Assembly (NCBI GenBank): GCA_964598565.1
Contig: CAZRCG010000006.1
Span: 37,624 to 101,623, forward strand
Origin: an uncultured Bacteriovoracaceae bacterium
GTDB taxonomy: Bacteria; Bdellovibrionota; UBA2394
DNA: 64,000 bases
Reading direction: 5' to 3'
Every line of letters starts with the position of its first letter. Positions within the stretch are counted from its first letter, which is position 1. The notes under the pieces are model-generated. The model did no database searches. It was not told the DNA's origin and saw nothing but the letters and a program-made list of their open reading frames with translations. Position numbers and translations under genes: made by a program. This document shows, piece by piece, positions 1,393-34,311 of the stretch.

Positions 1393-4221
1393 TTATCTAC
1401 GCGCCTCAATAAGTTCGATGGCGCGTTCGAGGGTCAGGGTTTCGATGGTTTCGCCCTTGGGAATGGAGGCATTGACTTTGCCACACTTCACATAGGGCCC
1501 GTAGGGCCCATCAAAAATTTCGAGGGGCTTTTTTTCGAGAGGATGATCGCCGAGGGTTTTGAGGGCCTGTCGTTTGGTGCGACCACGGCCGCCTCCGCGG
1601 GTACGCTCTTCTTGGAAAATATCGAGGGCTCGCTGGAGTGATATATTCAAAACATTGTCTTCTTTTTTTAGCGAACGATATTCGGGCTTTTCAAGATCGC
1701 CTCCACTGCGCACGACATAGGGCCCGAAGCGGCCCAGGCCGGCCTTGACGGTGTGGCCCTCGGCGTTCTGGCCGAGAGTGCGCGGTAAATAAAGATAACC
1801 TAAGGCCTCCTCAAGCGTCAGATTGGCGGGGTTCACGCCCTTAGGTACAACGGAGCGCTTCACTTTGAATGCGAGCTCGGCAGTATCGGCAGGTTCTTCT
1901 TGTTTCTTTGGTGTCTGCGATGCTTTTTTTGATTTCGTTTTAGATTTCTTTTTGGGAGCAGCCGCATCGGCGTCTTCGGCTTCGCCCAATTGCAAATAGG
2001 GACCATAGCGACCCGTCATGGCGTAGACCTTCTTGCCACTTTGAGGATCGATGCCCAAATGGGGCGGGCCGTCTTTCTTCTGCTGAATCAGTTGATCAAG
2101 TACCGCTACGTCCACATCGGCGGGAGCGAGGTCTTCAGGAAGAGAGGCTCGAACTTCGACTCCCTCGGAGCCACCGGAAGCGGCCTCTCGCTTCGAAAAG
2201 TAAGGTCCAAACTTACCGATACGAAATTGAATATCAGGAAATTTTTCGAGAGCGACCGAACGAGACTCGTCGGGATCAATATGTTTTGATTGAGCCGCAA
2301 TTTGTGCTCGAAGACCTCGCTTGGGCTCGGAATAAAAATCTCTCAAAAACTGAAGATAAGGTTTTTTTCCCTCAGCAATATCGTCCAAGGTATCTTCCAT
2401 CTGGGCCGTAAATCGCAAATCAATGAGCTCATTAAAGTGCTTCTTCAATAAACGAGTGACGGCAAACGCGGTGAAGGTCGGCACAAGAGCATTGCCCCCA
2501 CGACGAACATAACCACGATCGATGATCGTCGAAATAATGGCGGCATAAGTGGACGGTCGACCGATGCCCTCTTTTTCAAGAGTTTGAATAAGCGTGGCCT
2601 CAGTGAATCGTGCCGGAGGTTTGGTCTCATGCTCCGTAACCTCGAGCTCTGAATGGACCAGATTTTGGCCCACTTTCAGTGCAGGCAGCAAAACTTCACG
2701 CTCTTCGAGCGCGGCGTCGGTATCATCCCGGCCTTCCACATAACAGCGTAAAAATCCTGGAAACAAAATGCGCGTGCCGGTGGCCTGAAACTCTGCCTCG
2801 CCCGCTCGAATAGAAACCGTGGTGGTCATCTGCTTGGAGTCTGCCATTTGCGTGGCCATGGTTCGTTTCCAAATCAAATCATAGAGCTGCATCTCGAGAC
2901 CCGACAAACCACTCTCACTGGCTGTTTTAAAATCGGAGCCCGCCGGTCGTATGGCTTCATGTGCTTCTTGCGCGCCTCGAGACTTCGATTGATATTGCCT
3001 TGGGCCATCGGAAAGAAAGTCGGCACCATAAAGTTTTTGAATCGCTCGCCTCGCACCATCGAGCGCCTCTTGCGACAGCGTCACCGAGTCGGTACGCATA
3101 TAGGTGATAAACCCTTTTTCGTAAAGACCCTGCGCCACTCTCATCGCTTCGCGCCCCGAAAGACCCAGCTTACGATTCGCCTCTTGCTGGAGGGTCGATG
3201 TAATAAAAGGCGGGGCCGGTTTTCGAGCAAAGGGCTTTTCTTGAAGATCGGCCACAGTAAATGATTGCGCCTTAAGCGATTGCTTCAGTGTCTCAGCTTC
3301 GGGCTTTAATAAGAGACGAATATCTTTGCCTTCAAAAAGTTTTCCGGTTTGTTCGTCAAAATCTTTTCCAGTGGCAATTCGCTGCTCATTTATTTTAACT
3401 AATTTGGCTTCGAAACTGGCGGCGTCTTTCTGAGGGTCCGATGGAGTTTTAGCCTGTGAGAGCGTCGCTAACATTCCACAATAGGACGCCTTCTTAAATC
3501 GCATGCGCTCTTCTTCACGCTCAACAATAAGGCGGGTCGCCACCGACTGAACACGACCTGCACTAAGACCATACGCAATTTTGGTCCATAAGAGCGGCGA
3601 AAGCGAATACCCATAAAGACGATCGAGTATACGACGAGACTCTTGGGCCTCAACCAGTTTACGATCGACCTCTCTAAAATTATTCAGCGAGTCTTCGATC
3701 GCCTTGCGAGTAATTTCGTGAAAGACCATTCGTTTCACCGGAATGGTCGGCTTTAAAACCTCGACCAAATGATGAGAGATACTTTCTCCTTCACGGTCCT
3801 CGTCGGTAGCGAGAATCAACTCATCGGCATCGCGCAAACATTCTTTTAAATGGCGAATCACTTTGGCCTTCGCCGACGGAATTACATAGAGAGGTGTGAA
3901 ATCGGAATCGACATTAATGCCGAGACTCGCCCACTTTTCTTTTTTGTATTTTTCAGGAATTTCTTTGGCCGATGCGGGCAGATCGCGAATATGCCCGACA
4001 CAAGCTTCTACATGAAAGCCGGGGGGCAAAAATTTCTTGATGGTCTTAGCTTTCGTCGGTGATTCGACGATGACAAAGACTCGTTTGGCGCCGCGAGAAC
4101 TTGGTGTGGGGGCTGCCACGGATTTTTTTTGAGATGGAGAACTCTCGGTTTGAAGAGATTCCGCTTTTGGTTTTTTAGATTTTGTAGTTCGTTTTGTCAT
4201 TCTATTGTCATTGCTTCCCAA
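1393..4221 (-). CDS. topA: DNA topoisomerase I with C-terminal zinc-ribbon repeats and lysine-rich tail
   Basis: N-terminal TOPRIM VFVIVESPTKAKTIKKFL, central topo IA core, 942 aa, C-terminal KKKSKTKSKK basic tail. Confidence 0.95.
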   Translation of the reverse strand: MGSNDNRMTKRTTKSKKPKAESLQTESSPSQKKSVAAPTPSSRGAKRVFVIVESPTKAKTIKKFLPPGFHVEACVGHIRDLPASAKEIPEKYKKEKWASLGINVDSDFTPLYVIPSAKAKVIRHLKECLRDADELILATDEDREGESISHHLVEVLKPTIPVKRMVFHEITRKAIEDSLNNFREVDRKLVEAQESRRILDRLYGYSLSPLLWTKIAYGLSAGRVQSVATRLIVEREEERMRFKKASYCGMLATLSQAKTPSDPQKDAASFEAKLVKINEQRIATGKDFDEQTGKLFEGKDIRLLLKPEAETLKQSLKAQSFTVADLQEKPFARKPAPPFITSTLQQEANRKLGLSGREAMRVAQGLYEKGFITYMRTDSVTLSQEALDGARRAIQKLYGADFLSDGPRQYQSKSRGAQEAHEAIRPAGSDFKTASESGLSGLEMQLYDLIWKRTMATQMADSKQMTTTVSIRAGEAEFQATGTRILFPGFLRCYVEGRDDTDAALEEREVLLPALKVGQNLVHSELEVTEHETKPPARFTEATLIQTLEKEGIGRPSTYAAIISTIIDRGYVRRGGNALVPTFTAFAVTRLLKKHFNELIDLRFTAQMEDTLDDIAEGKKPYLQFLRDFYSEPKRGLRAQIAAQSKHIDPDESRSVALEKFPDIQFRIGKFGPYFSKREAASGGSEGVEVRASLPEDLAPADVDVAVLDQLIQQKKDGPPHLGIDPQSGKKVYAMTGRYGPYLQLGEAEDADAAAPKKKSKTKSKKASQTPKKQEEPADTAELAFKVKRSVVPKGVNPANLTLEEALGYLYLPRTLGQNAEGHTVKAGLGRFGPYVVRSGGDLEKPEYRSLKKEDNVLNISLQRALDIFQEERTRGGGRGRTKRQALKTLGDHPLEKKPLEIFDGPYGPYVKCGKVNASIPKGETIETLTLERAIELIEARR

Positions 4222-4339
4222 GATTCCTTAACTATTGTGAATCATTTCTCATTTCTTACAAGAAATTCAAAATGACAAGCATTCGAATGCTGTAAATCAT
4301 GCTTGATCTTTTATTCGTTTAGCGTCCAGAGTCACTCGC

Positions 4340-5881
4340 GTGACAGAAAAACCGTTGACACCCCTTTCAGCGTCATGGCCTGAGCTGGCTGCAAACTACG
4401 ATGTCGTCGTCATTGGAGCGGGACTCGCAGGGTCGGAGGCTGCGCTTCGCATTGCGGCAGAAGGTCGTCGCGTTTTATTGCTCGAGCAGAAACCTCAACG
4501 CTTTTCACCTGCCCACCGATTACCGGGAGCTGCAGAGTTAGTTTGCAGCAACAGCTTTAAATCGCTCGAGACGCGCTCAGCACATGGTCTGATGAAAGAA
4601 GAACTCAGGCGACTAGGCTCGCCCTTACTCAAATTGGCTCTTCAGTCTCGAGTTCCAGGCGGAAAAGCCTTGGCCGTGCATCGAGAGGCCTTTAGTGAGG
4701 CTGCTGAACATGCGATTTCTTCTCATTCGTTCATCACAAAGATGGGGCTAGAGGTGAAAGAGATTCCTCGTGTGCCAATTCCTGTCATTATTGCCAGCGG
4801 CCCTCTCACGTCGGATGCTCTGGCACAAGATCTCTGCCGACATCTGGGGGATGAATCACTTTATTTTTACGATGCCACCGCCCCGGTTGTGAGCTTGGAT
4901 TCTCTCGATCTTGATTTCTTCTTTTGGGGGAATCGCCATCAGGACGGACAAGACTATCTAAACTTGCCGTTAACGCAAAGTGAGTATCATTATTTTCGAG
5001 AGCAACTTTTGAAAGCAGAGAAAATGGAATCGCATATGACGGACGAACTTCGATTTTTCGAAGGCTGCCTGCCCGTCGAAGAACTCGCCTCACGCGGCGA
5101 AGAAACCTTGGCCTACAGCTGCATGCGTCCCGTGGGTCTTTCGATGAGCGAATGGCCATCCCCTCGGCGCGAGGCCTTTGCCCCTCGTTACCAGGCCCAT
5201 GCCGTGATTCAATTTCGTCGCGAACGAGCCAGTGGGGAGCTTCTCAATATGGTGGGCTTTCAAACCCGCATGAAGTGGCCCGAGCAGCAGCGCGTATTTC
5301 GAGAACTTCCGGGTATGGGCTCGGCGGATTTTGTTCGCCTTGGAGCGATGCATCGCAATACGTTTGTCAATACACCGAAGCATTGCCGCGATCATCTCGA
5401 ACTTAAAAATCTCGAAAGCTCGACGCTTGGCCCCGTATTTGTTGCCGGGCAAATTTCTGGGTCTGAAGGTTATACGGAGGCGATTGCCTCGGGCCATTAT
5501 GTCGCCCTTCGCGTGCTGGGGTATCCTTGTCTGCCTGAAACCTCGTGTTTAAGGTCGATGGTGCGCTTTCTTATAGAATCAGATTCTCGGTATTTTCAGC
5601 CCATGAATTTTAATTTTGGTCTCTTACCTTCGTCTCCCCCTGAAAGCCACGCTAACGCTACAATAAAAGAAGGGTCGCCTGCTGGCCGACCCCCGAAGAG
5701 GCGAAAACTCTCTAAAGCAGAGCGCATTGCCGAACGCGTGGAGTGCAGCCTGGGAGACTTAGATACGTGGATTTTAAGTCATTTCAAAGAGCCATTGAAA
5801 ACTACCTTAACGACGCAGTGGCCTTCGAACGATTTAGCCCCCATAGTCACCGAGCACGATGCACAGATCTTAAGCGCTTAG
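4340..5881 (+). CDS. trmFO: Methylenetetrahydrofolate--tRNA-(uracil-5-)-methyltransferase TrmFO (Gid), with extended C-terminal tail
   Basis: FAD-binding N-terminus YDVVVIGAGLAGSEAA, conserved FQPMNFNFGLLP near C-terminus; GTG start; 3' end overlaps the xerC reading frame. Confidence 0.9.
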   Translation: MTEKPLTPLSASWPELAANYDVVVIGAGLAGSEAALRIAAEGRRVLLLEQKPQRFSPAHRLPGAAELVCSNSFKSLETRSAHGLMKEELRRLGSPLLKLALQSRVPGGKALAVHREAFSEAAEHAISSHSFITKMGLEVKEIPRVPIPVIIASGPLTSDALAQDLCRHLGDESLYFYDATAPVVSLDSLDLDFFFWGNRHQDGQDYLNLPLTQSEYHYFREQLLKAEKMESHMTDELRFFEGCLPVEELASRGEETLAYSCMRPVGLSMSEWPSPRREAFAPRYQAHAVIQFRRERASGELLNMVGFQTRMKWPEQQRVFRELPGMGSADFVRLGAMHRNTFVNTPKHCRDHLELKNLESSTLGPVFVAGQISGSEGYTEAIASGHYVALRVLGYPCLPETSCLRSMVRFLIESDSRYFQPMNFNFGLLPSSPPESHANATIKEGSPAGRPPKRRKLSKAERIAERVECSLGDLDTWILSHFKEPLKTTLTTQWPSNDLAPIVTEHDAQILSA

Positions 5882-6678
5882 AAAATTTTTTAGAGGGCCA
5901 GCCTCTCTGCGTTAACATCTGGAATAAATTTTGCCACCATATTTCAAAAACCCTTTCGATAAACTCTCAAAAGAGAGCCTACTCGACATATCGAGTATTT
6001 TTTCAAAGCCTGAAGGCGCGTAATCGCCAGATCGATTTACCTCGACTAGAGATTCCTAAACTCCGTGGGCATCGAAAATTACCGCGTACGCTCAGCTACG
6101 ATGAAGTGGCCGAGACTTTAAGCGCTGAATCTAAGGTACAGCTTTTTGTGGAATTTCTTTATGCGACGGGGGCACGTGTTTCTGAGGCCTGTCATGCTCA
6201 GTGGTCCGATCTGGAGATGAATCCCCCCTCGATCCGACTCTATGGCAAAGGCCGGAAATGGCGAATCTGTCCGCTGCCAAAATCTCTGGTCGAGCGATTG
6301 CAAGAAGCGCGCAAAATTTGGGATGAAACTATTCGAGGTACCCCTTCGCGCAGTGGCACTTCGACCCTACAAAGCCAGGCGATGCCTGTCGTGAATCGCT
6401 ATATTTTTTCGTCTCAGAGAGATCCCGCGAAGCCGCTGTCAGATCGTTGGGTACGTAAACAACTTCGAGACCTTTCGCTAAAGATTTCGCACAAAAAGCA
6501 TTTGCATCCTCACCTCTTTCGGCATTCGATTGCCACCCACCTTCTAGATGCCGGGGCCCATCTTCGTTTCATTCAAGACATCTTGGGCCATGCATCGCTC
6601 TCGACCACTCAAAAATATCTGAATGTTTCGAAACAGCGGCTTATGGAAGTTTTCGATCGCTTTCATCCACGAGCTTAA
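5743..6678 (+). CDS. xerC: Tyrosine site-specific recombinase, XerC/XerD family (start uncertain, probably a GTG around 5767)
   Basis: Catalytic-domain motifs LYATGARVSEA, HLFRHSIATHLLDAGAHLRFIQDILGHASLSTTQKYL; N-terminal core-binding-like region; sits in the conserved topA-trmFO-xerC arrangement. Confidence 0.85.
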   Translation: MQPGRLRYVDFKSFQRAIENYLNDAVAFERFSPHSHRARCTDLKRLENFLEGQPLCVNIWNKFCHHISKTLSINSQKRAYSTYRVFFQSLKARNRQIDLPRLEIPKLRGHRKLPRTLSYDEVAETLSAESKVQLFVEFLYATGARVSEACHAQWSDLEMNPPSIRLYGKGRKWRICPLPKSLVERLQEARKIWDETIRGTPSRSGTSTLQSQAMPVVNRYIFSSQRDPAKPLSDRWVRKQLRDLSLKISHKKHLHPHLFRHSIATHLLDAGAHLRFIQDILGHASLSTTQKYLNVSKQRLMEVFDRFHPRA

Positions 6679-6763: not shown

Positions 6764-7780
6764 GTGGGGTCTGATCATACGCCAACCAATTCGGAGTCAA
6801 TGAAGAGCACAACTATTGACGGCAATGCCATTGAAAAGCAACTTGACGAAGACGACAAAGTTCCTGAACTAAAAAAAATTGATCGAGATTTTAGACGCAT
6901 GATTTTGCTGAGCCTCGCGAAGGCAAACGATGATAATCCGTATCTCATCCTCGACTTAAAGGTAGGCGTTTCGATTGAAACCGTTCGTTTGCGCTACCAC
7001 GATCTTTCTCGGTCGCTCCATCCTGATAAGCATTACCGTAAGGAACTTGGCCCCTACAAGCGCAAGCTCGAAAGTTTGTTCAGTCGCATTCAGAAGGCTT
7101 ACTCCAAACTGAAAGACCCCTACTCTAAGGAAGCTCTCGATAAACTTCTGAAGCTTAAAGATACACCGGCCAAAACCAGACCGATTCAAGGCGACGGCTC
7201 CACGTTCAAAGCCTCGTCCAAGCCGAAGCCACCCACGCAGTTATCGAAAGAGATGGAGCGATGGGGAAAAGCAGAAGCCGCTTACAAGAAGGGCCTTGAT
7301 TTTGAAAAGAACGGCTTTGCTTGGGACGCTTATATGCATTTTGTAGAGGCCGTCAAATTAGAACCTAAACGAGACACTTATAAGGCGGCTCACCAAAGAA
7401 TTCAAGCCGCCGCCTTTCGAGAGAGATCTCAAAGAGAAATTCAAGAATTGAAAAATGAGATTACTTCCTCAGGCGCTTCTCAGGCCATTTTGCGAAAATC
7501 GGAAGAACTCTTGCGACTCGAACCAGAGTCTCTGGATGCTAAAATTATTTTTAGTCGATGTATTGTCGAACGAAAAATGGAAGATCGCTACCACGAAGCC
7601 GAAGTCTTGTTGCAACGCTTAAAGTCGGCTCGTCCGCAAGATAGTGATCCGTGCTTATGGCTTGCACGGCTTTATGAAAATCGGGGCGAGAAAAAGGCGG
7701 CTATGAAAGAAGCTAAAGAGGCTCTGAATAGAAATCCAAAAAACTCGTCGGCTGAAAAACTCATTCAGCGATTGAAATAA
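6764..7780 (+). CDS. J-domain (DnaJ-like) co-chaperone with TPR-like C-terminal repeats
   Basis: J-domain with HPD tripeptide (LSRSLHPDKH); helical repeat-rich C-terminal half; not a canonical DnaJ (no Gly/Phe or zinc-finger region). Confidence 0.75.
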   Translation: MGSDHTPTNSESMKSTTIDGNAIEKQLDEDDKVPELKKIDRDFRRMILLSLAKANDDNPYLILDLKVGVSIETVRLRYHDLSRSLHPDKHYRKELGPYKRKLESLFSRIQKAYSKLKDPYSKEALDKLLKLKDTPAKTRPIQGDGSTFKASSKPKPPTQLSKEMERWGKAEAAYKKGLDFEKNGFAWDAYMHFVEAVKLEPKRDTYKAAHQRIQAAAFRERSQREIQELKNEITSSGASQAILRKSEELLRLEPESLDAKIIFSRCIVERKMEDRYHEAEVLLQRLKSARPQDSDPCLWLARLYENRGEKKAAMKEAKEALNRNPKNSSAEKLIQRLK

Positions 7781-8041
7781 ACTAGGGTAAAATGGGCCTA
7801 TCACCGATCTCCCGTTCGGTGCACCTCGACGCCAAAAACGAAACCTGCATCCTTGACTGCCTATCGCCTACCGCGCGAAAAGTTCTTAAGCCGTGGCGCA
7901 GTGCATTGATCTGTCGAAATGGCACCTCTTGCGGCGCTGGCTCTTGACGTCTTTGAGTCTCGAAGACTTTAAGTCGTAACGACTTTCACTCATGAGGACT
8001 TTTTGAGAGATTTCAACTGGCATCGGCGTTAAACTGAAAGC

Positions 8042-9646
8042 GTGTCAGAGATCGTTTTGGGTATTGATTTAGGAACGACCTATTCTTGTGTGGCGATAGC
8101 CGACAAAGATGGGCCCAGAGTTATTGAGCAACATGGAGGCTATCGCACCTTTCCTTCCGTCGTGGCCTTCACGGCCAATGGGTCTAAACTCATTGGTCAT
8201 ATTGCCAAGCGCCAATCGATTACGAATGCTGAAAATACGGTCTACTCCGCGAAGCGGCTAATCGGGCGAGGCTTCGAGGCTCCCGAGGTGCAAAAGGCAA
8301 TAAAATCGGTGCCCTATAAAATTGTTCAAGGCCCCAATAGAGATCCGAGAATATCTATTTTTGGCCGCAATCATCCAATCTCTGAAATTTCGGCGCTCAT
8401 TTTAAAGCAAATTAAAGAGATCGCCGAGGAGAGTCTTCACACCAAAATAGATAAGGCCGTGATTACCGTGCCAGCCTATTTTTCAGATGGTCAGAGGCAG
8501 GCAACCAAAGACGCAGGTTTCATTGCCGGCCTCGAGGTGCTGCGTATTATCAATGAACCTACGGCGGCGGCTCTTGCCTTCGGATACAAGCGTCGTATGG
8601 ACAAAAAGATTGTGGTTTACGATTTGGGTGGGGGTACGTTTGATGTTTCAATACTCGATATTTCTCGCGATACCTTCGAAGTATTGGCGACCGCAGGAAA
8701 TACCTTTCTGGGTGGAGAAGACTTTGATCAACGACTTATCGATTTTATTTCGAAATCGTTTGAAGCAGACCATGGCATTTCACTGAAAGATGATCGAATG
8801 GCCCTTCAGCGTCTGAAAGATGCTGCTGAAACCGCTAAGAGCCAGCTGTCGACTCTGCTTGAGACCGAAGTGAACTTACCCTTTCTCATTACCATCAACG
8901 GTGAGGCGAAACATTTGAAGATGACGCTTCATCGACTTGATCTTGAGCGAATCACTCAAGACTTGGTCGATGAAACTATCCGCATTTGTCGGGACGCCCT
9001 CGATATGGCAGCTCTCAAAGTGGGAGAAATCGATGATGTTTTGTTGGTGGGGGGTATGACTCGCATGCCGTTGGTTCAGCAAAAGGTGCGGGAATTCTTT
9101 GAACGCGTTCCATCGAAAAATATTCATCCGGATGAGGCTGTAGCTCTTGGGGCCGCCATTATGGGCGCCACTCTTCTAGAAGAAGAAATGCCTGTGACTC
9201 TTCTCGATGTGACTCCCTTCAGTTTGGGTATTCGAACAGCCGGTGGTTATACCAACTTTCTGATACCCAAAAATTCGACCATTCCGACCGAAGCCAGTCA
9301 TGTCTTTACGACGGTGAGCGAGGGGCAGACATCGGTGAAAATTCAGGTCCTGCAGGGTGAAAGCAAAGTCGCCATCGACAATATTTTACTGGGAGAATTC
9401 ACGCTCACTGATATTCCTCCCCTAAAAGCGGGAGAGCCTGAAATTAATGTGATTTTTAGCATCGATTCAAATGGTATTGTTCATGCGTCAGCGCAAGATA
9501 TGAAAACCATGAAAGAGCAATCGATTATGGTCACCTCAAAGTCGAGCTTAACCGAAGAAGAGCGAGATGAAATTGCCGAACGCTTTAACAGCGATAACGA
9601 TATGGGCGTCACTGAGAAAGTGGGACGACCTGAAGGCTCACAATGA
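8042..9646 (+). CDS. Hsp70-family chaperone, short-lid HscC-like type
   Basis: IDLGTTYS, DLGGGTFDVSIL, VGGMTRMPLVQQKV motifs; 534 aa, i.e. nucleotide-binding domain plus beta substrate-binding domain but truncated helical lid; GTG start. Confidence 0.85.
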   Translation: MSEIVLGIDLGTTYSCVAIADKDGPRVIEQHGGYRTFPSVVAFTANGSKLIGHIAKRQSITNAENTVYSAKRLIGRGFEAPEVQKAIKSVPYKIVQGPNRDPRISIFGRNHPISEISALILKQIKEIAEESLHTKIDKAVITVPAYFSDGQRQATKDAGFIAGLEVLRIINEPTAAALAFGYKRRMDKKIVVYDLGGGTFDVSILDISRDTFEVLATAGNTFLGGEDFDQRLIDFISKSFEADHGISLKDDRMALQRLKDAAETAKSQLSTLLETEVNLPFLITINGEAKHLKMTLHRLDLERITQDLVDETIRICRDALDMAALKVGEIDDVLLVGGMTRMPLVQQKVREFFERVPSKNIHPDEAVALGAAIMGATLLEEEMPVTLLDVTPFSLGIRTAGGYTNFLIPKNSTIPTEASHVFTTVSEGQTSVKIQVLQGESKVAIDNILLGEFTLTDIPPLKAGEPEINVIFSIDSNGIVHASAQDMKTMKEQSIMVTSKSSLTEEERDEIAERFNSDNDMGVTEKVGRPEGSQ

Positions 9647-10440
9647 CGAAGCCCCCGATGAGAGATGGTATTGAGCCCAAGATTTTAATTTCAAAACAAG
9701 AGTGGATGGTGGTCGCCAAGCCGGCAGGTTACCATACGCTTTCGGCCAAGGCATCTTCGGAGCCAGTGAAAGACCCTCACGGCTTATTTCATGATGATGA
9801 AATAAGCGGCGTCTATGACATAAGCCCTAAAGGGCCTCTTGTGATGGATGATTCAGATGATATTTCTGAGGGGCAAAGCTTGGAAGCTTGGTTGTTAGAG
9901 CAGTATCCCGAGCAGAAGTCGATTCCTGACTCGGGCATTGCGCATCGTCTCGATCAGAGGACCTCGGGATGCCTGTTAGTTGCAAGAACCGAAAGCTCCT
10001 ATATGCATCTGAGAGATGATATTCGTTCAGGAGCTATACGAAAAATATATTTGACCTATGTGAAGGGCCTTTGCCGATCGGGAGATTTCACGCTCTATTT
10101 TTCGAGTCGATATAAGCGGTCTCAAAAAGTAACCGTAGCTGAAACAGGTCCGGAAAAAGTTCGAGGTCGCTGTCAGTGGACTATGCTCAAAACCGATCGA
10201 GATCGCAGCCTCCTCGAAGTGGAACTTCTCGGCCGTGGCAAGCGACACCAAATACGCGCCGGCTTTGCGCATCTCGGTCATCCCCTTGTGGGCGATCGAC
10301 TCTACGGAGGTCCCGCTTGGAATTCGCGCTTTGGTCTGCATGCTTGGAAATTACTATGGAAGAAACATGAGGTCATTTGCCCCCCGCCCGATGACTGGCC
10401 AGAGGATTTTAAGAAGATAGGCGAGGAGGGAGAAGCCTAA
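9643..10440 (+). CDS. RluA-family pseudouridine synthase
   Basis: Catalytic HRLDQRTSGCLLVART motif and GRGKRHQIR motif; start ATG overlaps the Hsp70 stop (ATGA). Confidence 0.8.
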   Translation: MTKPPMRDGIEPKILISKQEWMVVAKPAGYHTLSAKASSEPVKDPHGLFHDDEISGVYDISPKGPLVMDDSDDISEGQSLEAWLLEQYPEQKSIPDSGIAHRLDQRTSGCLLVARTESSYMHLRDDIRSGAIRKIYLTYVKGLCRSGDFTLYFSSRYKRSQKVTVAETGPEKVRGRCQWTMLKTDRDRSLLEVELLGRGKRHQIRAGFAHLGHPLVGDRLYGGPAWNSRFGLHAWKLLWKKHEVICPPPDDWPEDFKKIGEEGEA

Positions 10441-10458
10441 GCCTGTTCATCGTCTTGG

Positions 10459-10505
10459 CCTGACCATACCCAATAAATGGCGGACCATTATTGGGTATGG
10501 TCCAG
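10459..10505. terminator. Strong near-perfect hairpin (15-bp perfect inverted repeat gaccatacccaataa/ttattgggtatggtc, extendable to about 19 bp with one bulge) directly downstream of the RluA gene; terminator or protein-binding palindrome
   Basis: Inverted repeat read directly at 10462-10476 and 10488-10502; no strong U-run follows. Confidence 0.45.
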
Positions 10506-10729: not shown

Positions 10730-12385
10730 TTGACGAAGCCGAAGTTCGTAAATTTGAACGACTGGCCGCCGATGTTCCTTAAGCTGAGATGCTTTATCTT
10801 TCGAATGATCCCCGGGCTATGCGCATCAACGATGTGGGCTGCCTCCATTGGAAAGATGGAATGTCACGAATATTTGAGCGCGATTTATAGCCTGCAACTT
10901 GACACAATCAAACGTTTGTTTGAAAATCATCGGGTGACGCTGACGCTGGTCTCGCCTTTATTCGTTTTCTTTCTCGTAACCGCAGACGACAAATTACCTC
11001 CCCCTCCGAGCTTGTCGGAGAAAATTCTTTTGGAACGGCTTCAAGAGACAAGCCCGGCTATACAATCGATTCGAGCCCAGAGAGCCGATAGAGAGCTTGA
11101 GCGTTCTCTGCTGCGAGAGAGGTTTGAAAGCACGCTCAGCCCCTCGATATCTTATTTGAACACGAAAGAGCGAGCCATTTCAGCCCTTGAGCCTGTAATA
11201 AGCCCGCAGCTTCAAAGCGCACTGCGGATAAGCCGACGACTACCTTTCGGCGTTGAAATCATAGGTGAAGCTCAGGCGAGGCAGATCAGCGTAGAAGCTT
11301 CCCAGGTTTACGATGCCACTCAGGTGCGAGGCCTGGTGAGAGCCCAGTTTGATTTGTGGAATAATCTATTTGGTATTGCCGATCGAGCTCTGTTGTCAGC
11401 CCTTGTCGCCAGCGAGAAAGGTGCTGAACTTCGCGAAACGCTTCAACGAAAATCGTTGGAGTCTGATATTCGCATTCTCTATTGGCGATGGCTTGCGACC
11501 AATGAACGCCTTCGAGTATCTAAGGAGCTTCTGAGGGGCTCGGATGTGCAGCTGACCGATGCTCGACAGCGTCGGCGTCAATCGGCGGCTGACGAAGGCG
11601 ATGTCGCGCTACTCGAAGCGCAGTGGCTGCAACGCCAGCGCGATCTTGATTTTTTAACCCAGCAGAAAGTGGGGCTCTTAACGACGATTGAAGAGCTGTT
11701 GGGCCCCCTGCCGGTGGAGTGGAAGGCGGCGGACCCCCTCGATCTTGGTTCATTACTGCGAGAAAGAGTGGCCGACGCTCAGTCGTGCGCCGCCAATCCA
11801 TCGAATGAATGGCTGCGATCCGATTGGGACGATGTCGTAGCCCTCTTGCAAACAGAGCGAGATGGCCGAACGCGTTCGGCGCAGTATTCGCATCTACCAA
11901 CCGTTCAGGGCTTCGCGCAATTGCAAACGAGTGGAGCACGGTCGTCGCTTGGTGGAGCCTTCGATGATTGGCGTGACGATACCAAGCTGGGCTATGAGGT
12001 TGGTGTTCAGTTGAGTTTACCTCTGGAGGGCGATCGTTTCACAAGTCGACGAAAAATGATGGAATCGAACCACCTTCGCTTGGATGCTGAAAGTCAAAGA
12101 CTTCAATATCAGCTGAACTCTAAGCGAAGCCAATGGTCTCAAACACTCCCTCTTCTCTATCGCCAACTAGAGGCTCAGCAGAAGAGCTCGCTGGCGCTTG
12201 AAAAAGCCGTGCGATCAAAAAAGCGAAAGTTTGACCAAGCAAGAGCGTCTATTAACGACCTCATCCATGATCAGAACGCGTACTACCAAAGTCGACTTCA
12301 AGAGATCTCGCTGCAAGAAGAGATTCTGGTGACCGTACTCGACTTTAAAAAGACTCTCACTAAACTTTCGTGCTTGGAACTATGA
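10730..12385 (+). CDS. TolC-family outer membrane efflux protein (true start likely downstream of the annotated start)
   Basis: Coiled-coil and beta-barrel repeat pattern typical of outer membrane factor proteins; immediately upstream of an RND pump. Confidence 0.7.
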   Translation: MTKPKFVNLNDWPPMFLKLRCFIFRMIPGLCASTMWAASIGKMECHEYLSAIYSLQLDTIKRLFENHRVTLTLVSPLFVFFLVTADDKLPPPPSLSEKILLERLQETSPAIQSIRAQRADRELERSLLRERFESTLSPSISYLNTKERAISALEPVISPQLQSALRISRRLPFGVEIIGEAQARQISVEASQVYDATQVRGLVRAQFDLWNNLFGIADRALLSALVASEKGAELRETLQRKSLESDIRILYWRWLATNERLRVSKELLRGSDVQLTDARQRRRQSAADEGDVALLEAQWLQRQRDLDFLTQQKVGLLTTIEELLGPLPVEWKAADPLDLGSLLRERVADAQSCAANPSNEWLRSDWDDVVALLQTERDGRTRSAQYSHLPTVQGFAQLQTSGARSSLGGAFDDWRDDTKLGYEVGVQLSLPLEGDRFTSRRKMMESNHLRLDAESQRLQYQLNSKRSQWSQTLPLLYRQLEAQQKSSLALEKAVRSKKRKFDQARASINDLIHDQNAYYQSRLQEISLQEEILVTVLDFKKTLTKLSCLEL

Positions 12386-12397
12386 AAGGACGTCTCC

Positions 12398-15300
12398 ATG
12401 GAACGCCTTGCCCAGTTTTTTCTCGATAATAAAAAATTTACGTATGTCGTGACTCTTATTTTTGCCGTTTACGGAGGTCTCAATCTTCTTCAAATTCATA
12501 CCGAAGAATTTCCTAATGTGAATGTTGGCAACGCAATTGTCACCACCAACTATCCAGGGGCCTCAGCCACCGAAGTAGAGACGAAGATTACAAAGCCAAT
12601 CGAAGATGAAATTCGAAGTGTACGCGGCATTAAAATGGTTCGATCCCTGTCAAAGCCTGGCTTCAGCCAAATTTTCATCGAAGTAGATATCGATCGTTAT
12701 TCCGTTCAAGAAGTCATGGGCGATCTTCAGCGAGCCATCGATCGAACGAGAGACCTGCCCGGCGATTTAGATGAACTGCCGGCGTTTGTTGAAATAAAAA
12801 CTGAAGAATGGCCTGTGATCGAGTTAGCGATTGTGGGGTCCAATGATAATCGACTGCGAAATCGGGTGGCCGATGAACTCAAAGAGGTCATTGAGGAGCA
12901 TCCCGGCATTGTAGAGGTTCTTCCACTCGGCTATGCGCCGAGACAATTTACCATTCAGTTAGATCCCAAAAAACTACAGGCTTTCAATATTGGTATCGAT
13001 GAGGTTGTCGGCGCGATTCGATCGAGAAACGTGACAATTCCTGGCGGAGAGATTAAATCGGCAAGGGATCAGCGCCTTTTAAGAATTGAGGGTAAAGTTC
13101 ATAGTATTTCTGACCTTGAAACGCTTGTCGTGCGATCGACGTTTTCAGGCCGGCCTGTTCTTCTGAAGGATATCGCTCAGCTCTCGGACAACGAGCCCGA
13201 GCAAGACATTCTTTACCGATATGGCCAAGAGCCTGCTACTATGCTGGCGGCGAAGAAGCGAGGCGGCGCGGATATTCGCTCTCTTTCGAGCGACGTCGAA
13301 ACCATCATTGGTAGTTTTAGAGAAAAATATAAAGACGATCTTAAGTTTAATATTTACTTTAACTCCGGCGAACAGACCCATCAACGCATCACAATTTTAG
13401 GATCTAACGCGGTGGTGGGACTTGTCTTGGTATTCTTATTTCTCATGCTGTTTTTGCCAGGACGTCATGGATTTGTGGCGGGGCTATCGCTACCACTCGC
13501 GATGCTAGCGACCGTGGGCTTTATGAATACCGCAGGCCTCACGCTAAACTCTATGAGCATTCTGGCACTCATTATTGCGCTAGGCATGCTCGTCGATAAT
13601 GCGGTTGTCGTCGCAGAGAATACTATCTTTCTACAAAAGAAAGGCTTGCCCACGCGCGAAGCGCTTTTAAAAACGGTTCAGCAACTTTCCTTACCCATTA
13701 CCATGACGACGCTCACCACTATTTTTGCGTTCGTACCGATGCTGGTGACAACGGGGGGTATGGGTCAATTTATCCGAAGTCTTCCCATCATCATTAGTTT
13801 TGCTCTTGCCTTCAGTTTGTTTGAAGCATTTTTTCTGCTACCAACACGATTGGGATGGCTCAAGCTTAAGCTGCCCTCAGACTCCTCATTAAAATCATCC
13901 TCAGAATCTCGAAGTGAACATCATGATTGGTTCACTCGTTGGATAGAGCCCCCCTTTGCGCGCCTGATGACCCTTGTCGTTAAGCATCGCATAATAACGT
14001 TTGGCGTCTATACGGCGATTCTTCTGGGGTCGATGCTCTTGCTTGTGAAAGGCAATGATTTGATTTTATTTCCGGCTGATCAAGCAAAACGCTACTTAAT
14101 GCGTGTTGAAATGCCCGTAGGCACTCCTGTAACAAAAACGTCTGAAGCGCTGGCGCGACTGGCCCAGAAAGTCCAAGACAAGTTTGGAGCGGGCATTGAA
14201 CATATTAAAGTCATTGCTGGAGAGTCTGCGTTTGACCCCAATGATCCTAAAGCAAAGAAAGGGGCTCGCTTTGGTCTGCTCTATATTTTTATTTCAGACG
14301 AGCTAAAAGATACAGTTCCCTACAAGAAAACTTTGGCCGATCTACGAGCCATCACGATACCCGGTATAGAAAAAATTGGCGCTGAAGTGGAAATCATGGG
14401 ACCTCCTATTGGGGATCCCGTAAATATTAGTTTTCGCTCGAACGACGCAGCGGCATTACAAGCGGTTGCGCAGTCTATCGTCGACAAGCTTCGGGAGACG
14501 CCCGGTATTTTTGATGCGCAGGTCAACGAGATCATTGGCGACGAAGAAGTTTTCGTCAGCGTCGACTATCAAAAGGCAGCTCGCTTGGGATTAAATCTGG
14601 CCCATATTGGAGAGACCGTGCGAACGGCGATTGCAGGGACGAAAGTATCGGATATCACCTTGAACAACAAAAAGGTGGATCTCGTCGTTCAGTTTAACCC
14701 CGAAGGACGTGAGTCTTTAGAGAGCTTGAATCTCATTAAGATTCGAGATCCTCAGGGAAATTTGATTCCTCTATCGACCGTGGCCACCTTTAAAAAGGTA
14801 GTGGGCGAACCCCAGATTCAACGCTTTGACTACAAACGATCTAAAACCGTGACCGCCAATGTGAACCTTGATGAACTCACCGCAGTAGAAGCTAATGAAA
14901 TAGCCTTGGCCGCCTATGCTGCCATTCAAGCGGACTATCCAGAAGTAAGCCTCGAGCTAGGGGGTGAGGGAGAAAAAACTCAAGAGTCTATGCAGTCGCT
15001 CTTTCGGGCTCTAATGCTTTCTCTGCTCGCCATTTTTGGCCTGCTCGTTCTTCAATTTAATTCGTATCTCAGACCTCTGATCATTTTGAGCACCATTCCT
15101 CTCGGCATTGTCGGCGTATCCGTCGCGTTTTTCTTTCACGATCGCCCCATCAGCTTTCTCGCGCTTATTGGCATTTTGGGTCTCGGTGGAATCATCGTAA
15201 ATACGGGTATCATTCTCATTAGCTTCATTGATGAGCTACGCAAAGAGAGCGATCGAAGCCTACTAGAAATTGTTCTTGAAGCCGCCACGCGACGCCTTCG

Positions 15301-15556
15301 TGCCGTGGTGGTGACGTCGGTCACAACCGTCGCCGGCCTCATTCCCACAGCGTATGGCATGGGAGGTGCGGATGAATTTATTATTCCCATGTGTATGTCG
15401 CTGGCATGGGGCTTAGTGAGCGGTACGTTACTCTCTTTAATTTGGGTACCCTGCGCCTACATGATCACCGAAGATATCGCCCGCTGGTGTGGTCAAAAAA
15501 TGGGGCGATCGAGCAGAGAACAGTCCCTCAAAGTGCTTCAGTCCGTGAAGGCATAG
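12398..15556 (+). CDS. RND efflux transporter permease, AcrB/CzcA family
   Basis: 1052 aa, 12-TM RND architecture, conserved N-terminus FFLDNKKFTYVVTLIFAVYGG and large periplasmic loops. Confidence 0.9.
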   Translation: MERLAQFFLDNKKFTYVVTLIFAVYGGLNLLQIHTEEFPNVNVGNAIVTTNYPGASATEVETKITKPIEDEIRSVRGIKMVRSLSKPGFSQIFIEVDIDRYSVQEVMGDLQRAIDRTRDLPGDLDELPAFVEIKTEEWPVIELAIVGSNDNRLRNRVADELKEVIEEHPGIVEVLPLGYAPRQFTIQLDPKKLQAFNIGIDEVVGAIRSRNVTIPGGEIKSARDQRLLRIEGKVHSISDLETLVVRSTFSGRPVLLKDIAQLSDNEPEQDILYRYGQEPATMLAAKKRGGADIRSLSSDVETIIGSFREKYKDDLKFNIYFNSGEQTHQRITILGSNAVVGLVLVFLFLMLFLPGRHGFVAGLSLPLAMLATVGFMNTAGLTLNSMSILALIIALGMLVDNAVVVAENTIFLQKKGLPTREALLKTVQQLSLPITMTTLTTIFAFVPMLVTTGGMGQFIRSLPIIISFALAFSLFEAFFLLPTRLGWLKLKLPSDSSLKSSSESRSEHHDWFTRWIEPPFARLMTLVVKHRIITFGVYTAILLGSMLLLVKGNDLILFPADQAKRYLMRVEMPVGTPVTKTSEALARLAQKVQDKFGAGIEHIKVIAGESAFDPNDPKAKKGARFGLLYIFISDELKDTVPYKKTLADLRAITIPGIEKIGAEVEIMGPPIGDPVNISFRSNDAAALQAVAQSIVDKLRETPGIFDAQVNEIIGDEEVFVSVDYQKAARLGLNLAHIGETVRTAIAGTKVSDITLNNKKVDLVVQFNPEGRESLESLNLIKIRDPQGNLIPLSTVATFKKVVGEPQIQRFDYKRSKTVTANVNLDELTAVEANEIALAAYAAIQADYPEVSLELGGEGEKTQESMQSLFRALMLSLLAIFGLLVLQFNSYLRPLIILSTIPLGIVGVSVAFFFHDRPISFLALIGILGLGGIIVNTGIILISFIDELRKESDRSLLEIVLEAATRRLRAVVVTSVTTVAGLIPTAYGMGGADEFIIPMCMSLAWGLVSGTLLSLIWVPCAYMITEDIARWCGQKMGRSSREQSLKVLQSVKA

Positions 15557-15560
15557 ACCG

Positions 15561-16217
15561 ATGTCTCGCCTACGAACCAAAAAAGATACTAAATCGACTC
15601 GAGAGAAAATTCTTCGAGTCGCCTCGCAGATGTTTTCGAATCAAGGCTATGGCAGCACTTCTGTGCGTGATATCGCGAAAGAAGCAGGAGTAAACATTGC
15701 TGCCATCAATTATCACTTTCGTTCGAAACAAGAATTGCTGTGGCAGATTCTTCAAAACTCCAATCGGCATCTCCGAGAAATCGCCGACGAGATAGCGCGC
15801 TCCGATTTGGGCTTCGAGGATGCCAGTGTCGCTTTTTGTGAGCGAATGTTACGTTTATCGAGCGATGTGCGCACGGTCATGCGTGTCTTTATGTCTCCAG
15901 TCGAAGAGGGTTACGAAGCCAACTTTCAAGATATCTGTAAAAAAAGCACGGTGGGCCCCCCTGGCTATGAGGGCCTTTCTGCTATCTTGCAGAGGTCGAT
16001 CAAACGCTCTTTAAGTCCTTCGGAAATGCTCTTTGCCGTTCGCTCTCTCTTTCACTCGATTCTTCTATGGACGACGCTCTCGGACACCCCATTTTTGAAA
16101 ACGCAGTGTCGCTTACATCGCAAACACTTCAGCCGCACCGCGATTCTTAAGGAGATCAGAACGCTGGCACGCGCGCTACTCGTGTATCTTAAGGCCGAAC
16201 CTCGCACTATAGTATAA
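15561..16217 (+). CDS. TetR/AcrR-family transcriptional regulator
   Basis: N-terminal HTH SVRDIAKEAGVNIAAINYHFRSKQEL; 5 bp downstream of the RND gene. Confidence 0.85.
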   Translation: MSRLRTKKDTKSTREKILRVASQMFSNQGYGSTSVRDIAKEAGVNIAAINYHFRSKQELLWQILQNSNRHLREIADEIARSDLGFEDASVAFCERMLRLSSDVRTVMRVFMSPVEEGYEANFQDICKKSTVGPPGYEGLSAILQRSIKRSLSPSEMLFAVRSLFHSILLWTTLSDTPFLKTQCRLHRKHFSRTAILKEIRTLARALLVYLKAEPRTIV

Positions 16218-34267: not shown

Positions 34268-34311
34268 AGGAGAAGCCTTCGAGAAGAACTCTTCGAGGAG
34301 AATCGACCATT

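What the first reader, a model, noticed from the sequence alone, without database searches (positions are those of the whole stretch)
6764..10505. Non-canonical J-protein / short-lid Hsp70 pair translationally coupled to an RluA pseudouridine synthase
A TPR-containing J-domain protein (HPD present) precedes an Hsp70 of only 534 aa, which has the nucleotide-binding and beta substrate-binding domains but a truncated helical lid, as in HscC-type Hsp70s. The Hsp70 stop overlaps the start codon of an RluA-family pseudouridine synthase with an intact HRLD catalytic motif, implying co-translation. A strong hairpin closes the unit. I am not aware of a described functional link between an Hsp70/J pair and an RNA pseudouridine synthase, so this may be a dedicated chaperone-RNA-modification module.
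Basis: partly seen in the sequence, partly recalled or inferred. Interest (0 to 1): 0.6.

Follow-up and report, generated by a model that had tools for sequence, protein, structure and literature searches.

The report
Lid-less DnaK, J-TPR partner, pseudouridine synthase operon
A three-gene operon encodes a J-domain/TPR co-chaperone, a DnaK-type Hsp70 that naturally lacks almost its whole helical lid, and an RNA pseudouridine synthase whose start codon overlaps the Hsp70 stop. The trio is kept intact across a whole clade of Bdellovibrio-related bacteria, but nothing yet shows that the chaperone and the RNA enzyme work on the same target.

Summary

The Hsp70 is not HscC-like. It is DnaK-type (50% identity to E. 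coli DnaK, 33% to HscC) and has none of the HscC indels. Catalytic and allosteric residues are intact. Only lid helix A remains (AlphaFold: helix 505-520, then disorder).

It belongs to a tight family of about 37 protein clusters, 524-548 aa, 61-88% identical. In all 7 family loci with readable context, a J-TPR gene lies upstream and an RluA gene overlaps the Hsp70 stop by 4-29 nt. The flanks are rearranged on both sides.

The two closest full-lid relatives (605 and 610 aa) keep the J-TPR partner but have no RluA. Three lineages of RluA homologs outside the clade stand alone, and 0 of 80 other DnaK loci carry an RluA. So the J-TPR/Hsp70 pair is ancestral, and lid loss and RluA capture coincide.

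The linked RluAs look like ordinary members of a widespread S4-less subfamily. Co-expression is well supported; a shared substrate is not. I found no description of this arrangement in the literature.

The parts
6764..7780 (+). Class-C J-domain protein: N-terminal J domain (about residues 58-126, with HPD), a disordered Lys/Pro-rich linker and a C-terminal TPR domain (about residues 170-338). It is the dedicated co-chaperone of the downstream Hsp70.
   Evidence: ORF. Pfam DnaJ and TPR_19 both above cut-off. Orthologs lie immediately upstream of the Hsp70 in L002, L004/L007, L008, L016, L017, L018, the P0157 contig, L024 and L109. Family-specific J-domain insertion FHPDxxFRKxLGxYK. About 26 representative clusters at E<1e-30. 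No PDB sequence relative.
7781..8041 (+). 261-nt J-hsp70 spacer, specific to this lineage. Relatives have about 10-57 nt; the closest relative, L002, has 15 nt. It may hold an internal promoter, but this is not shown.
   Evidence: Sequence. No ORF, no repeat elsewhere in the window. No Rfam match. No consensus sigma-70 site or CIRCE element. L002 junction.
8042..9646 (+). DnaK-type Hsp70 paralog, 534 aa: complete nucleotide-binding domain, linker and beta substrate-binding domain. The lid is reduced to one helix (residues 505-520) followed by a 14-residue disordered tail.
   Evidence: Pfam and NCBIfam. PDB alignment to DnaK residues 4-516. Alignment and key residues. AlphaFold2 model m6437e92e6710. 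Family of about 37 clusters of 524-548 aa.
9643..9646 (+). ATGA stop/start overlap between hsp70 and rluA, indicating translational coupling.
   Evidence: Sequence. Equivalent overlaps of 4, 4, 14, 26 and 29 nt in L018, the P0157 contig, L004, L017 and L016.
9643..10440 (+). S4-less RluA-family pseudouridine synthase, 265 aa, with the catalytic Asp in HRLD (D104) and the GRGKRHQIR motif.
   Evidence: Pfam PF00849. Below every NCBIfam equivalog cut-off. AlphaFold2 model pLDDT 86. Foldseek top hits are the RluD, RluC and RluA catalytic domains, TM 0.65-0.80. Invariant residues.
9760..9867 (+). Acidic, disordered insertion in RluA (about residues 40-75), specific to this lineage.
   Evidence: Absent from the 213-225 aa relatives. 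pLDDT 44-55.
10462..10502 (+). Stem-loop 22 nt after the rluA stop. Probably the 3' end or terminator of the operon; it has no canonical U-tract.
   Evidence: Fold: -33.4 kcal/mol for the 95-nt stretch folded, z = -4.4. Inverted-repeat arms 10462-10476 and 10488-10502.

Best explanation
This is a vertically inherited three-gene operon of a Bdellovibrionota-related clade.

The first two genes encode a specialised, self-contained Hsp70 system: a class-C J-domain protein with a TPR client- or partner-binding domain, and a DnaK-type paralog. This pair is old. The closest full-length relatives (605-610 aa, including Myxococcota) have the same J-TPR gene directly upstream.

In the ancestor of the short-Hsp70 clade, an ordinary S4-less RluA-family pseudouridine synthase gene came to lie at the 3' end of hsp70, overlapping its stop codon. 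The region encoding lid helices B-E and the C-terminal tail was lost at the same time.

Since then the three genes have been co-transcribed, and rluA has been translationally coupled to hsp70.

How it most likely works (inferred):
- The TPR domain selects the client or site.
- The HPD J domain triggers ATP hydrolysis in an allosterically intact Hsp70.
- Without a lid and latch, the beta domain binds and releases quickly and can accept bulky or folded clients.
- RluA is made in a fixed ratio and isomerises uridine in a stable RNA, as its free-standing homologs do in other phyla.

The link that is demonstrated is co-expression. I put a shared substrate or pathway at only about one in three.
For: Gene order, overlap and domain content.

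Trio conserved in 7 of 7 informative short-Hsp70 loci. J identity is 30-57%, Hsp70 68-88% and RluA 36-50%. Rearrangements occur on both sides:
- L017 lacks the upstream topA/trmFO/xerC genes.
- L018 and L016 have extra genes upstream.
- The window has a TolC/AcrB/TetR cassette between rluA and efp.

Their adjacency was not verified.

Sister loci L024 (610 aa) and L109 (605 aa, 60% identical) have J-TPR directly upstream and no RluA. The length distribution is bimodal, 520-548 versus 600-620 aa, with nothing in between.

Outside the clade, RluA homologs at 39-44% identity are free-standing (L021/L022, L023, L027/L028). Of 80 other DnaK loci, none has an RluA-family ORF within 5 kb.

Hsp70 residues D8, T11, K70, R71, D148, R167, N170, E171, D194, T199, D201, the VxLLD linker, F426, Q433, V436, I438 and V440 are all kept. 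So are K55, R56 and E267. Latch residue R467 is Ala.

Linked RluAs have no distinguishing signature compared with free ones. The catalytic residues are invariant.
Against: Stop/start overlap kept across order-level divergence (TopA only 63-74% identical) is more than typical neutral operons show. The exact coincidence of lid loss with rluA capture could reflect a functional trade rather than a single accident.

The neighbourhood is rich in translation genes (trmFO, efp, gatCAB), which hints at a shared theme.

No expression data are available. All relatives are metagenome assemblies. I could not check whether these genomes also carry a canonical dnaK/grpE/dnaJ or other RluA paralogs.
Confidence: 0.6

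Rival explanations
1. True functional module. The J-TPR/lid-less Hsp70 pair and the pseudouridine synthase act in the same process, most plausibly maturation of ribosomal subunits or another stable RNP. The chaperone remodels protein components of an assembly intermediate while RluA modifies its RNA. Fixed-ratio co-translation serves that joint action.
For: 7 of 7 conservation with overlapping junctions despite flank rearrangements, against 0 of 80 and 0 of 2 in other Hsp70 loci.

The surrounding genes are translation-related: trmFO, efp and gatCAB.

[quoted passage not shown] RluD, the closest structural relative, is seen bound to a pre-50S particle (PDB 7bl5).

A lid-less beta domain is suited to folded or bulky clients (inference from DnaK lid-truncation work, recalled from memory).
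Against: The same RluA subfamily works without any adjacent Hsp70 in Planctomycetota and other lineages. Linked RluAs carry no specific signature. The full-lid sister pair works without an RluA. No interaction or expression data exist.
Confidence: 0.3
2. RluA is itself the client or a structural partner of the Hsp70. It either needs the chaperone for folding or activity, or it docks on the beta domain and takes the place of the lost lid.
For: Lid loss and rluA juxtaposition coincide exactly in the sampled phylogeny. Translational coupling would deliver nascent RluA next to freshly made Hsp70. Beta-domain changes are invariant in the short family: E402R, M404A and A429V.
Against: Linked RluAs are no more similar to one another (45%) than to free-standing homologs (42%) and have no conserved extension or patch specific to the linked state. 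The Hsp70 C-terminal tail is not conserved. A429V is shared with the full-lid sisters, which carry V at 404 and M at 402, so only E402R and M404A are specific to the short family. Complex prediction was not possible with these tools.
Confidence: 0.08
3. An ordinary HscC/DjlC-type system next to a standard rluA or rluD gene, or a chance or assembly-artefact adjacency.
For: Short overall length and a non-DnaJ J protein resemble HscC/DjlC only superficially (finding text). Stop/start overlaps are common in bacteria.
Against: 33% identity to HscC against 50% to DnaK. There is no 76-101 deletion and no L1,2 insertion, and the salt-bridge residues are kept. The partner is J-TPR, not a DjlC-type protein. 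The RluA fails all equivalog cut-offs. The same arrangement appears on independent assemblies from NCBI, JGI, ENA and Logan.
Confidence: 0.02

Closest known systems
E. coli DnaK / DnaJ / GrpE (canonical bacterial Hsp70 system)
   Same: 50% identity over 533 aligned residues. Passes the NCBIfam DnaK equivalog NF001413. All catalytic, J-interface (R167, N170) and allosteric residues are kept, as are the linker, the central pocket (F426, V436, I438), the nucleotide-cleft salt-bridge residues and the subdomain IIB loop region.
   Different: Lid helices B-E and the acidic C-terminal tail are missing. Latch residue R467 is Ala. The arch is reversed in size (404 Ala, 429 Val) and E402 is Arg. The loop containing D211 is deleted. 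The partner is a J-TPR class-C protein rather than DnaJ. The operon context is J-hsp70-rluA rather than dnaK-dnaJ, and no grpE is nearby.
E. coli HscC / DjlC (specialised Hsp70; Mayer 2021, PMC8215388)
   Same: A shorter-than-normal Hsp70 encoded next to its own non-DnaJ J protein, which implies a specialised rather than generalist role.
   Different: Only 33% identical. Lacks the HscC deletion of DnaK 76-101, the 4-8 residue L1,2 insertion and the 9-residue helix B deletion. HscC keeps a lid; this protein has none. The salt-bridge residues that most HscCs lack are kept here. The J partner has TPR repeats, unlike DjlC, which PMC8215388 describes as tail-anchored in the membrane.
Full-lid (605-620 aa), C-terminal-tail-less DnaK paralogs of Myxococcota and relatives, encoded after a J-TPR gene (loci L024, L109)
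   Same: 56-60% identical and the nearest sequence relatives. They have the same J-TPR gene directly upstream, with the same J-domain insertion, the same D211-loop deletion, and 429 Val and 467 Ala.
   Different: They have a complete helical lid, and the Myxococcota members end in a conserved MFKGV(V/I)GK motif. No rluA lies downstream.

Whether they correspond to the M. xanthus SglK group (a PRK00290 paralog without the C-terminal tail, PMC8265645) could not be tested. From memory, sglK is preceded by a grpE-like gene, which would argue against that.
rRNA-modification genes in proteostasis operons: E. coli rluD-yfiH-clpB and rrmJ(rlmE)-ftsH
   Same: A pseudouridine synthase or rRNA methyltransferase gene sits next to, or is co-transcribed with, a chaperone or protease gene (PMC3384335).
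   Different: No Hsp70 is involved in those cases. There is no stop/start overlap with the chaperone gene, and no dedicated J protein. A mechanistic link there is at most indirect.
Engineered lid-truncated DnaK variants (from memory, not checked here)
   Same: The same domain content as this natural protein: nucleotide-binding domain, linker, beta domain and helix A.
   Different: Those are laboratory constructs with weakened substrate retention. Here the truncation is natural, and the family is conserved at 61-88% identity.

Membership tests
HscC-type Hsp70 | Deletion in nucleotide-binding-domain lobe I corresponding to DnaK residues 76-101 (PMC8215388) | tested here: not met
   The window protein and all 11 family members in the alignment have the full segment. 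E. coli HscC shows the gap.
HscC-type Hsp70 | 4-8 residue insertion in loop L1,2 of the beta substrate-binding domain | tested here: not met
   No insertion (GIRTAGGY aligns to DnaK GIETMGGV). HscC has VNRQ inserted.
HscC-type Hsp70 | Lid present with a 9-residue deletion in helix B; total length 550-580 aa | tested here: not met
   534 aa. The sequence ends at about DnaK 520-538, and AlphaFold shows only helix 505-520.
HscC-type Hsp70 | Loss of the nucleotide-cleft salt bridges K55-E267 and R56-E264 | tested here: not met
   K55, R56 and E267 are kept, and E264 is Asp. HscC has V, S and A at 55, 56 and 264 but keeps E267.
HscC-type Hsp70 | Cognate J protein of the DjlC/DjlB type (tail-anchored in the membrane) | tested here: not met
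   The partner is J plus TPR_19. Its highly charged C-terminus (...AEKLIQRLK) was read from the translation. The E. coli djlC/hscC locus was fetched as a reference. No formal transmembrane prediction was run.
DnaK (NCBIfam equivalogs) | Score at or above the curated cut-off | tested here: inconclusive
   NF001413: 700.9 against a cut-off of 648 (passes). TIGR02350: 674.1 against 822.55 (fails, because profile positions 509-596 are unmatched).
DnaK (functional architecture) | Catalytic and allosteric residues, conserved linker and hydrophobic pocket | tested here: met
   All listed residues are identical to DnaK across the family.
DnaK (functional architecture) | Complete alpha-helical lid (helices A-E) and a disordered acidic C-terminal tail | tested here: not met
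   Only helix A remains. No lid-coding remnant lies downstream.
DnaK (functional architecture) | Works with GrpE (subdomain IIB loop region and salt bridges retained) | tested here: inconclusive
   The subdomain IIB loop region has no deletion and the salt-bridge residues are present. No grpE is in the window or in any fetched flank. Biochemistry would be needed.
HscA | Score above the HscA cut-off; N-terminal extension; HscB partner | tested here: not met
   TIGR01991: 522.7 against a cut-off of 708.55. There is no N-terminal extension, and the partner is J-TPR.
J-domain protein, class C (J-TPR architecture) | J domain with HPD; no Gly/Phe region, zinc finger or DnaJ C-terminal domain; other domains present instead | tested here: met
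   PF00226 above cut-off, HPD present, TPR_19 above cut-off, no DnaJ_C or DnaJ_CXXCXGXG hit. The NCBIfam DnaJ equivalog scores 20 against a cut-off of 377.
RluA family of pseudouridine synthases | PseudoU_synth_2 domain, catalytic Asp in the HRLD motif, RluA-type fold | tested here: met
   PF00849: 64.4 against 26.8. D104 is invariant in 57 sequences. Foldseek matches the RluD, RluC and RluA catalytic domains at E 1e-12 to 1e-17.
Orthologs of E. coli RluA / RluC / RluD / TruC | NCBIfam equivalog score above cut-off; S4 domain for RluC and RluD | tested here: not met
   Scores are 41.8, 35.9, 65.6 and 36.5 against cut-offs of 286, 378, 351 and 328. There is no S4 domain. The same holds for relatives P0005, P0007, P0021 and P0027.

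The most novel reading that the evidence does not exclude
A natural lid-less DnaK paralog, with its dedicated TPR-J co-chaperone, forms a machine together with the co-translated pseudouridine synthase. The synthase would be either an obligate client or lid surrogate, or a partner acting on the same RNP. This would be a bacterial Hsp70 system dedicated to RNA modification or ribosome maturation. A still stronger variant, not excluded here, is that these genomes have no canonical DnaK, so a lid-less Hsp70 would be their housekeeping chaperone.
Probability: 0.13. Interest if true: 0.8.

Novelty: new variant of a known kind. Interest (0 to 1): 0.5.

Why it matters
Hsp70 mechanism is usually explained with the helical lid as the element that traps clients. 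Here is a natural family, conserved at 61-88% identity, that has shed the lid but keeps every allosteric residue and its own J-TPR targeting factor. That makes it a ready-made test of what an Hsp70 can do without a lid, and of what bacterial TPR-J proteins recruit.

The obligate genetic coupling to a pseudouridine synthase gives a concrete, testable candidate for a link between protein chaperoning and stable-RNA maturation. So far that link rests on co-purification data and on heat-shock regulation of rrmJ.

If the coupling turns out to be only transcriptional, the case is still useful. It would be a clean example of a single rearrangement that both truncated a chaperone and locked an unrelated gene to it. 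It also corrects the automatic annotation 'molecular chaperone DnaK' given to these proteins.

Tried and rejected
1. Genome-collection scan with the whole Hsp70. The peptide patterns chosen were too specific, so only two true relatives (L007, L008) came back. I could not map the taxonomic spread.

2. Metagenome scan with an alignment of the beta domain and tail. It was flooded by canonical DnaK (pattern LDVTP[FML]SLG) and returned no short-family member. I reused the 80 loci as a negative control.

3. Word-based search with the J protein found only 3 relatives. The exhaustive HMMER search showed about 26 representative clusters at E<1e-30.

4. Neighbour-joining tree of 126 RluA sequences. It was star-like. 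Linked sequences fall in a basal grade, and monophyly is not resolved.

5. Specificity-position analysis of linked against free RluAs. Only 5 weak positions emerged, so no partner-specific signature.

6. Search for lid-coding remnants downstream of hsp70 in six loci: none.

7. Rfam, consensus promoter/terminator scan, CIRCE element, and repeats or ORFs in the 261-nt spacer: nothing.

8. Homology between the small genes downstream of rluA in relatives and the gene downstream of hsp70 in L024: none.

9. Literature. No paper combines Hsp70, pseudouridine synthase, operon and J-domain. The Hsp70 review does not mention TPR, pseudouridine, Bdellovibrio or Myxococcus. The sglK/grpS searches were unproductive, so the relation to M. 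xanthus SglK remains open.

10. Cluster look-up gave no organism names.

11. HscC/DjlC reading: rejected on the membership tests.

Full report
**1. Is it there?**

Yes. The ORF list gives three consecutive + strand genes:
- 6764-7780: 338 aa, GTG start
- 8042-9646: 534 aa, GTG start
- 9643-10440: 265 aa, ATG start

Pfam assigns DnaJ plus TPR_19 to the first, HSP70 (profile positions 1-515 of 599) to the second and PseudoU_synth_2 to the third. The HPD and HRLD motifs are read directly from the translations. The hsp70 stop and rluA start overlap as ATGA at 9643-9646.

The downstream hairpin (stem 10462-10502) folds within a 95-nt stretch at -33.4 kcal/mol, z = -4.4, and none of 200 shuffles fold as well. 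No clear U-run follows it.

That spacer has no ORF, no repeat, no Rfam match, no consensus promoter and no CIRCE element. It is only about 10-57 nt in relatives and 15 nt in the closest one.

The rest of the window is an ordinary chromosomal region: topA, trmFO, xerC, efp, gatCAB, T2SS genes, hem genes, relA/spoT and gmk. It has no second DnaK.

**2. What kind of Hsp70?**

It is DnaK-type, not HscC-type.
- Identity is 50% to E. coli DnaK and 33% to E. coli HscC.
- It passes the NCBIfam DnaK equivalog NF001413 (700.9 against 648). It fails TIGR02350 only because the last ~90 profile positions are unmatched.
- I used the defining features listed in Mayer's review (PMC8215388). It has none of the HscC indels: no deletion of DnaK 76-101, no L1,2 insertion and no helix B micro-deletion.
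- It keeps the cleft salt-bridge residues K55, R56 and E267, with E264 changed to Asp.
- Every catalytic, J-interface and allosteric residue I checked is identical to DnaK.

What is missing is the lid. The sequence ends at about DnaK residue 520-538. The AlphaFold2 model (pLDDT 87.7) shows one helix at 505-520 followed by a disordered tail. Latch residue R467 is Ala. The arch is 404 Ala and 429 Val, and E402 is Arg throughout the family. No remnant of lid-coding sequence lies downstream.

**3. A family, not a one-off**

The protein search returned about 37 clusters of 524-548 aa at 61-88% identity. There is then a sharp step to proteins of 605-620 aa at 56-60% identity, mostly labelled Myxococcota, with no intermediate lengths. 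So the truncation is a conserved family trait.

**4. Conservation of the trio**

I obtained context for these short-Hsp70 loci:

| Locus | Source | J / Hsp70 / RluA identity to the window |
|---|---|---|
| L002 | activated-sludge contig; ends inside hsp70 | 57 / 88 / not available |
| L004, L007 | Bacteriovoracaceae MAG | 38-39 / 79 / 50 |
| L008 | MAG labelled Bradymonadales | 30 / 71 / 36 |
| L016 | GCA_017302715.1 | 34 / 72 / 43 |
| L017 | JGI contig | 31 / 70 / 41 |
| L018 | ENA contig | 33 / 68 / 39 |
| P0157 contig | gene table only | not computed |

Counting the window itself, all 7 loci that reach past the hsp70 stop have an RluA gene overlapping it, by 4, 4, 4, 14, 26 and 29 nt in the six whose start coordinates I read. 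All 8 short-Hsp70 loci, L002 included, have the J-TPR gene directly upstream.

The flanks are not constant:
- L017 has entirely different upstream genes.
- L016 and L018 have extra genes between xerC/trmFO and J.
- L018 lacks efp.
- The window alone carries a TolC/AcrB/TetR cassette between rluA and efp.

Breakpoints therefore fall on both sides of the trio but never inside it. The genomes are well diverged, with TopA 63-74% identical.

This suggests co-residence, but I did not verify adjacency for them.

**5. Outside the clade**

The two closest full-lid relatives both have a J-TPR gene immediately upstream and no RluA downstream:
- L109: 605 aa, 60% identical.
- L024: 610 aa, from a 9-Mb Myxococcota genome. 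There the pair follows xerC-hslV-hslU.

The J proteins are orthologous across both groups. They share an unusual 6-residue insertion after HPD (FHPDxxFRKxLGxYK). An exhaustive HMMER search finds about 26 representative clusters at E<1e-30.

Conversely, RluA homologs at 39-44% identity from Planctomycetota and other lineages are free-standing (L021/L022, L023, L027/L028). Among 80 unrelated metagenomic DnaK loci, none has an RluA-family ORF within 5 kb.

The picture is this: the J-TPR/Hsp70 pair is ancestral, and lid loss and rluA juxtaposition appear together in one clade. The raw contrast (7 of 7 against 0 of 82) cannot be read as a probability, because the seven loci share ancestry.

**6. 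The RluA**

It is a genuine RluA-family catalytic domain.
- D104 and the RHQIR motif are invariant in 57 sequences.
- The model has pLDDT 86. Foldseek matches the RluD, RluC and RluA catalytic domains at E 1e-12 to 1e-17.
- It has no S4 domain.
- It is below every NCBIfam equivalog cut-off, as are its relatives. So it is not an ortholog of the characterised E. coli enzymes, and its RNA target is unknown.
- The ~35-residue acidic insertion is disordered and specific to the window's lineage.

Importantly, operon-linked RluAs are no more alike (45%) than linked against free ones (42%). Only five weak positions discriminate the groups. The enzyme has not visibly adapted to a chaperone partner.

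**7. Interpretation**

Shown:
- a conserved, translationally coupled three-gene unit;
- a dedicated J-TPR/Hsp70 pair;
- a natural lid-less but otherwise intact DnaK-type ATPase;
- an apparently active pseudouridine synthase.

Inferred:
- the TPR domain supplies client or site specificity;
- the lid-less beta domain cycles quickly and tolerates bulky clients;
- RluA is produced in a fixed ratio.

I consider the most economical account to be a single ancestral rearrangement that placed rluA at the 3' end of hsp70 and removed the lid region. After that, the overlap and the dependence on the upstream promoter locked the genes together (confidence 0.6).

A true shared pathway remains a serious rival (0.3), with ribosome or RNP maturation the obvious candidate. 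This fits the trmFO/efp/gatCAB neighbourhood and the published co-purification of DnaK and DnaJ with rRNA-modification enzymes (PMC3384335). RluA as a client or lid surrogate is possible but has no specific support (0.08). The HscC/DjlC reading is refuted.

**8. Known or new?**

- Bacterial J-TPR proteins are a recognised class-C architecture (PMC10410713).
- Extra DnaK paralogs without the C-terminal tail are known in myxobacteria (PMC8265645).
- rRNA-modification genes next to chaperone genes exist in E. coli, for example rluD-yfiH-clpB.

I found no description of a natural lid-less DnaK family, of its J-TPR partner, or of an Hsp70-pseudouridine synthase operon. I therefore class it as a new variant of a known kind, of moderate interest.

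Limits:
- All relatives are metagenome assemblies.
- I could not inspect whole genomes for a canonical DnaK.
- I could not run complex predictions.
- The relation to M. xanthus SglK is unresolved.

Noticed in passing
window 56875-58413 (-): A second J-domain protein in the same window, with a different architecture: weak DUF4388 match, then J domain, then TPR (512 aa). It lies next to the ccsA/hemA/hemC/hemD genes. It is only distantly related to the operon's J-TPR protein (no direct BLASTP hit; both match P0003). So the genome encodes at least two TPR-J co-chaperones.
   Followed up: partly
window 1393-6678; L024 1-2570: The topA(-)/trmFO/xerC arrangement upstream of the trio mirrors the topA-trmFO-xerC(codV)-hslV-hslU cluster known from Firmicutes (from memory). 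Here hslVU is absent, and the J-TPR/Hsp70 pair sits where it would be. In the Myxococcota locus L024 the order is xerC-hslV-hslU-argB-(argF)-J-TPR-Hsp70.
   Followed up: partly
window 10730-16217 (+): A TolC-like (OEP) / AcrB-like (ACR_tran) / TetR cassette lies between rluA and efp in this genome only. Relatives instead carry small hypothetical genes of 159-226 aa that are not homologous to one another.
   Followed up: yes
window 7781-8041: The J-hsp70 spacer is 261 nt here but about 10-57 nt in relatives (15 nt in the closest, L002). It is unique sequence with no ORF, Rfam hit, repeat or consensus promoter. Its origin and role are unexplained; an internal promoter is one possibility.
   Followed up: partly
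P0164, P0168, P0176, P0186, P0197, P0223 (C-termini): The full-lid Myxococcota relatives end in a conserved motif, ...RTQRMFKGV(V/I)GK. The closest full-lid relative, P0162 (locus L109), and the short family lack it. A conserved C-terminal peptide next to a TPR co-chaperone recalls the EEVD-TPR docking of eukaryotic Hsp70/Hsp90. This was not tested.
   Followed up: no
L016 6824-7150, L017, L018, L008, L109, L024 (N-termini of the J-TPR proteins); L024 8420-8553: Longer J-TPR orthologs carry an extra N-terminal domain of about 60-100 aa (...EEGFLLSRL...), which is absent from the window, L002 and L007 proteins. Weak BLAST matches (E 1e-4 to 1e-6) link it to the C-terminus of the 235-aa gene downstream of hsp70 in L024, and to a region between the DUF4388 and J domains of P0003.
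   Followed up: partly
window 14-1354 (+): A ClpB/Hsp100-like AAA_2 ATPase lies just upstream of topA. It is cut by the window start; the full gene is 884 aa in L001. It is a further chaperone gene in the neighbourhood and is conserved in position in the P0157 contig and L018.
   Followed up: no
window 4340-5881 and 5743-6678: The longest trmFO and xerC ORFs overlap by 139 nt. The true xerC start is probably further downstream (relatives align from about residue 17), so the mechanical ORF is over-extended.
   Followed up: no
window 27974-28927 (+); 30712-36201 (+): An FHA-GGDEF diguanylate cyclase and a gspC/gspD/gspE type II secretion cluster. Both look ordinary and unrelated to the finding.
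   Followed up: no
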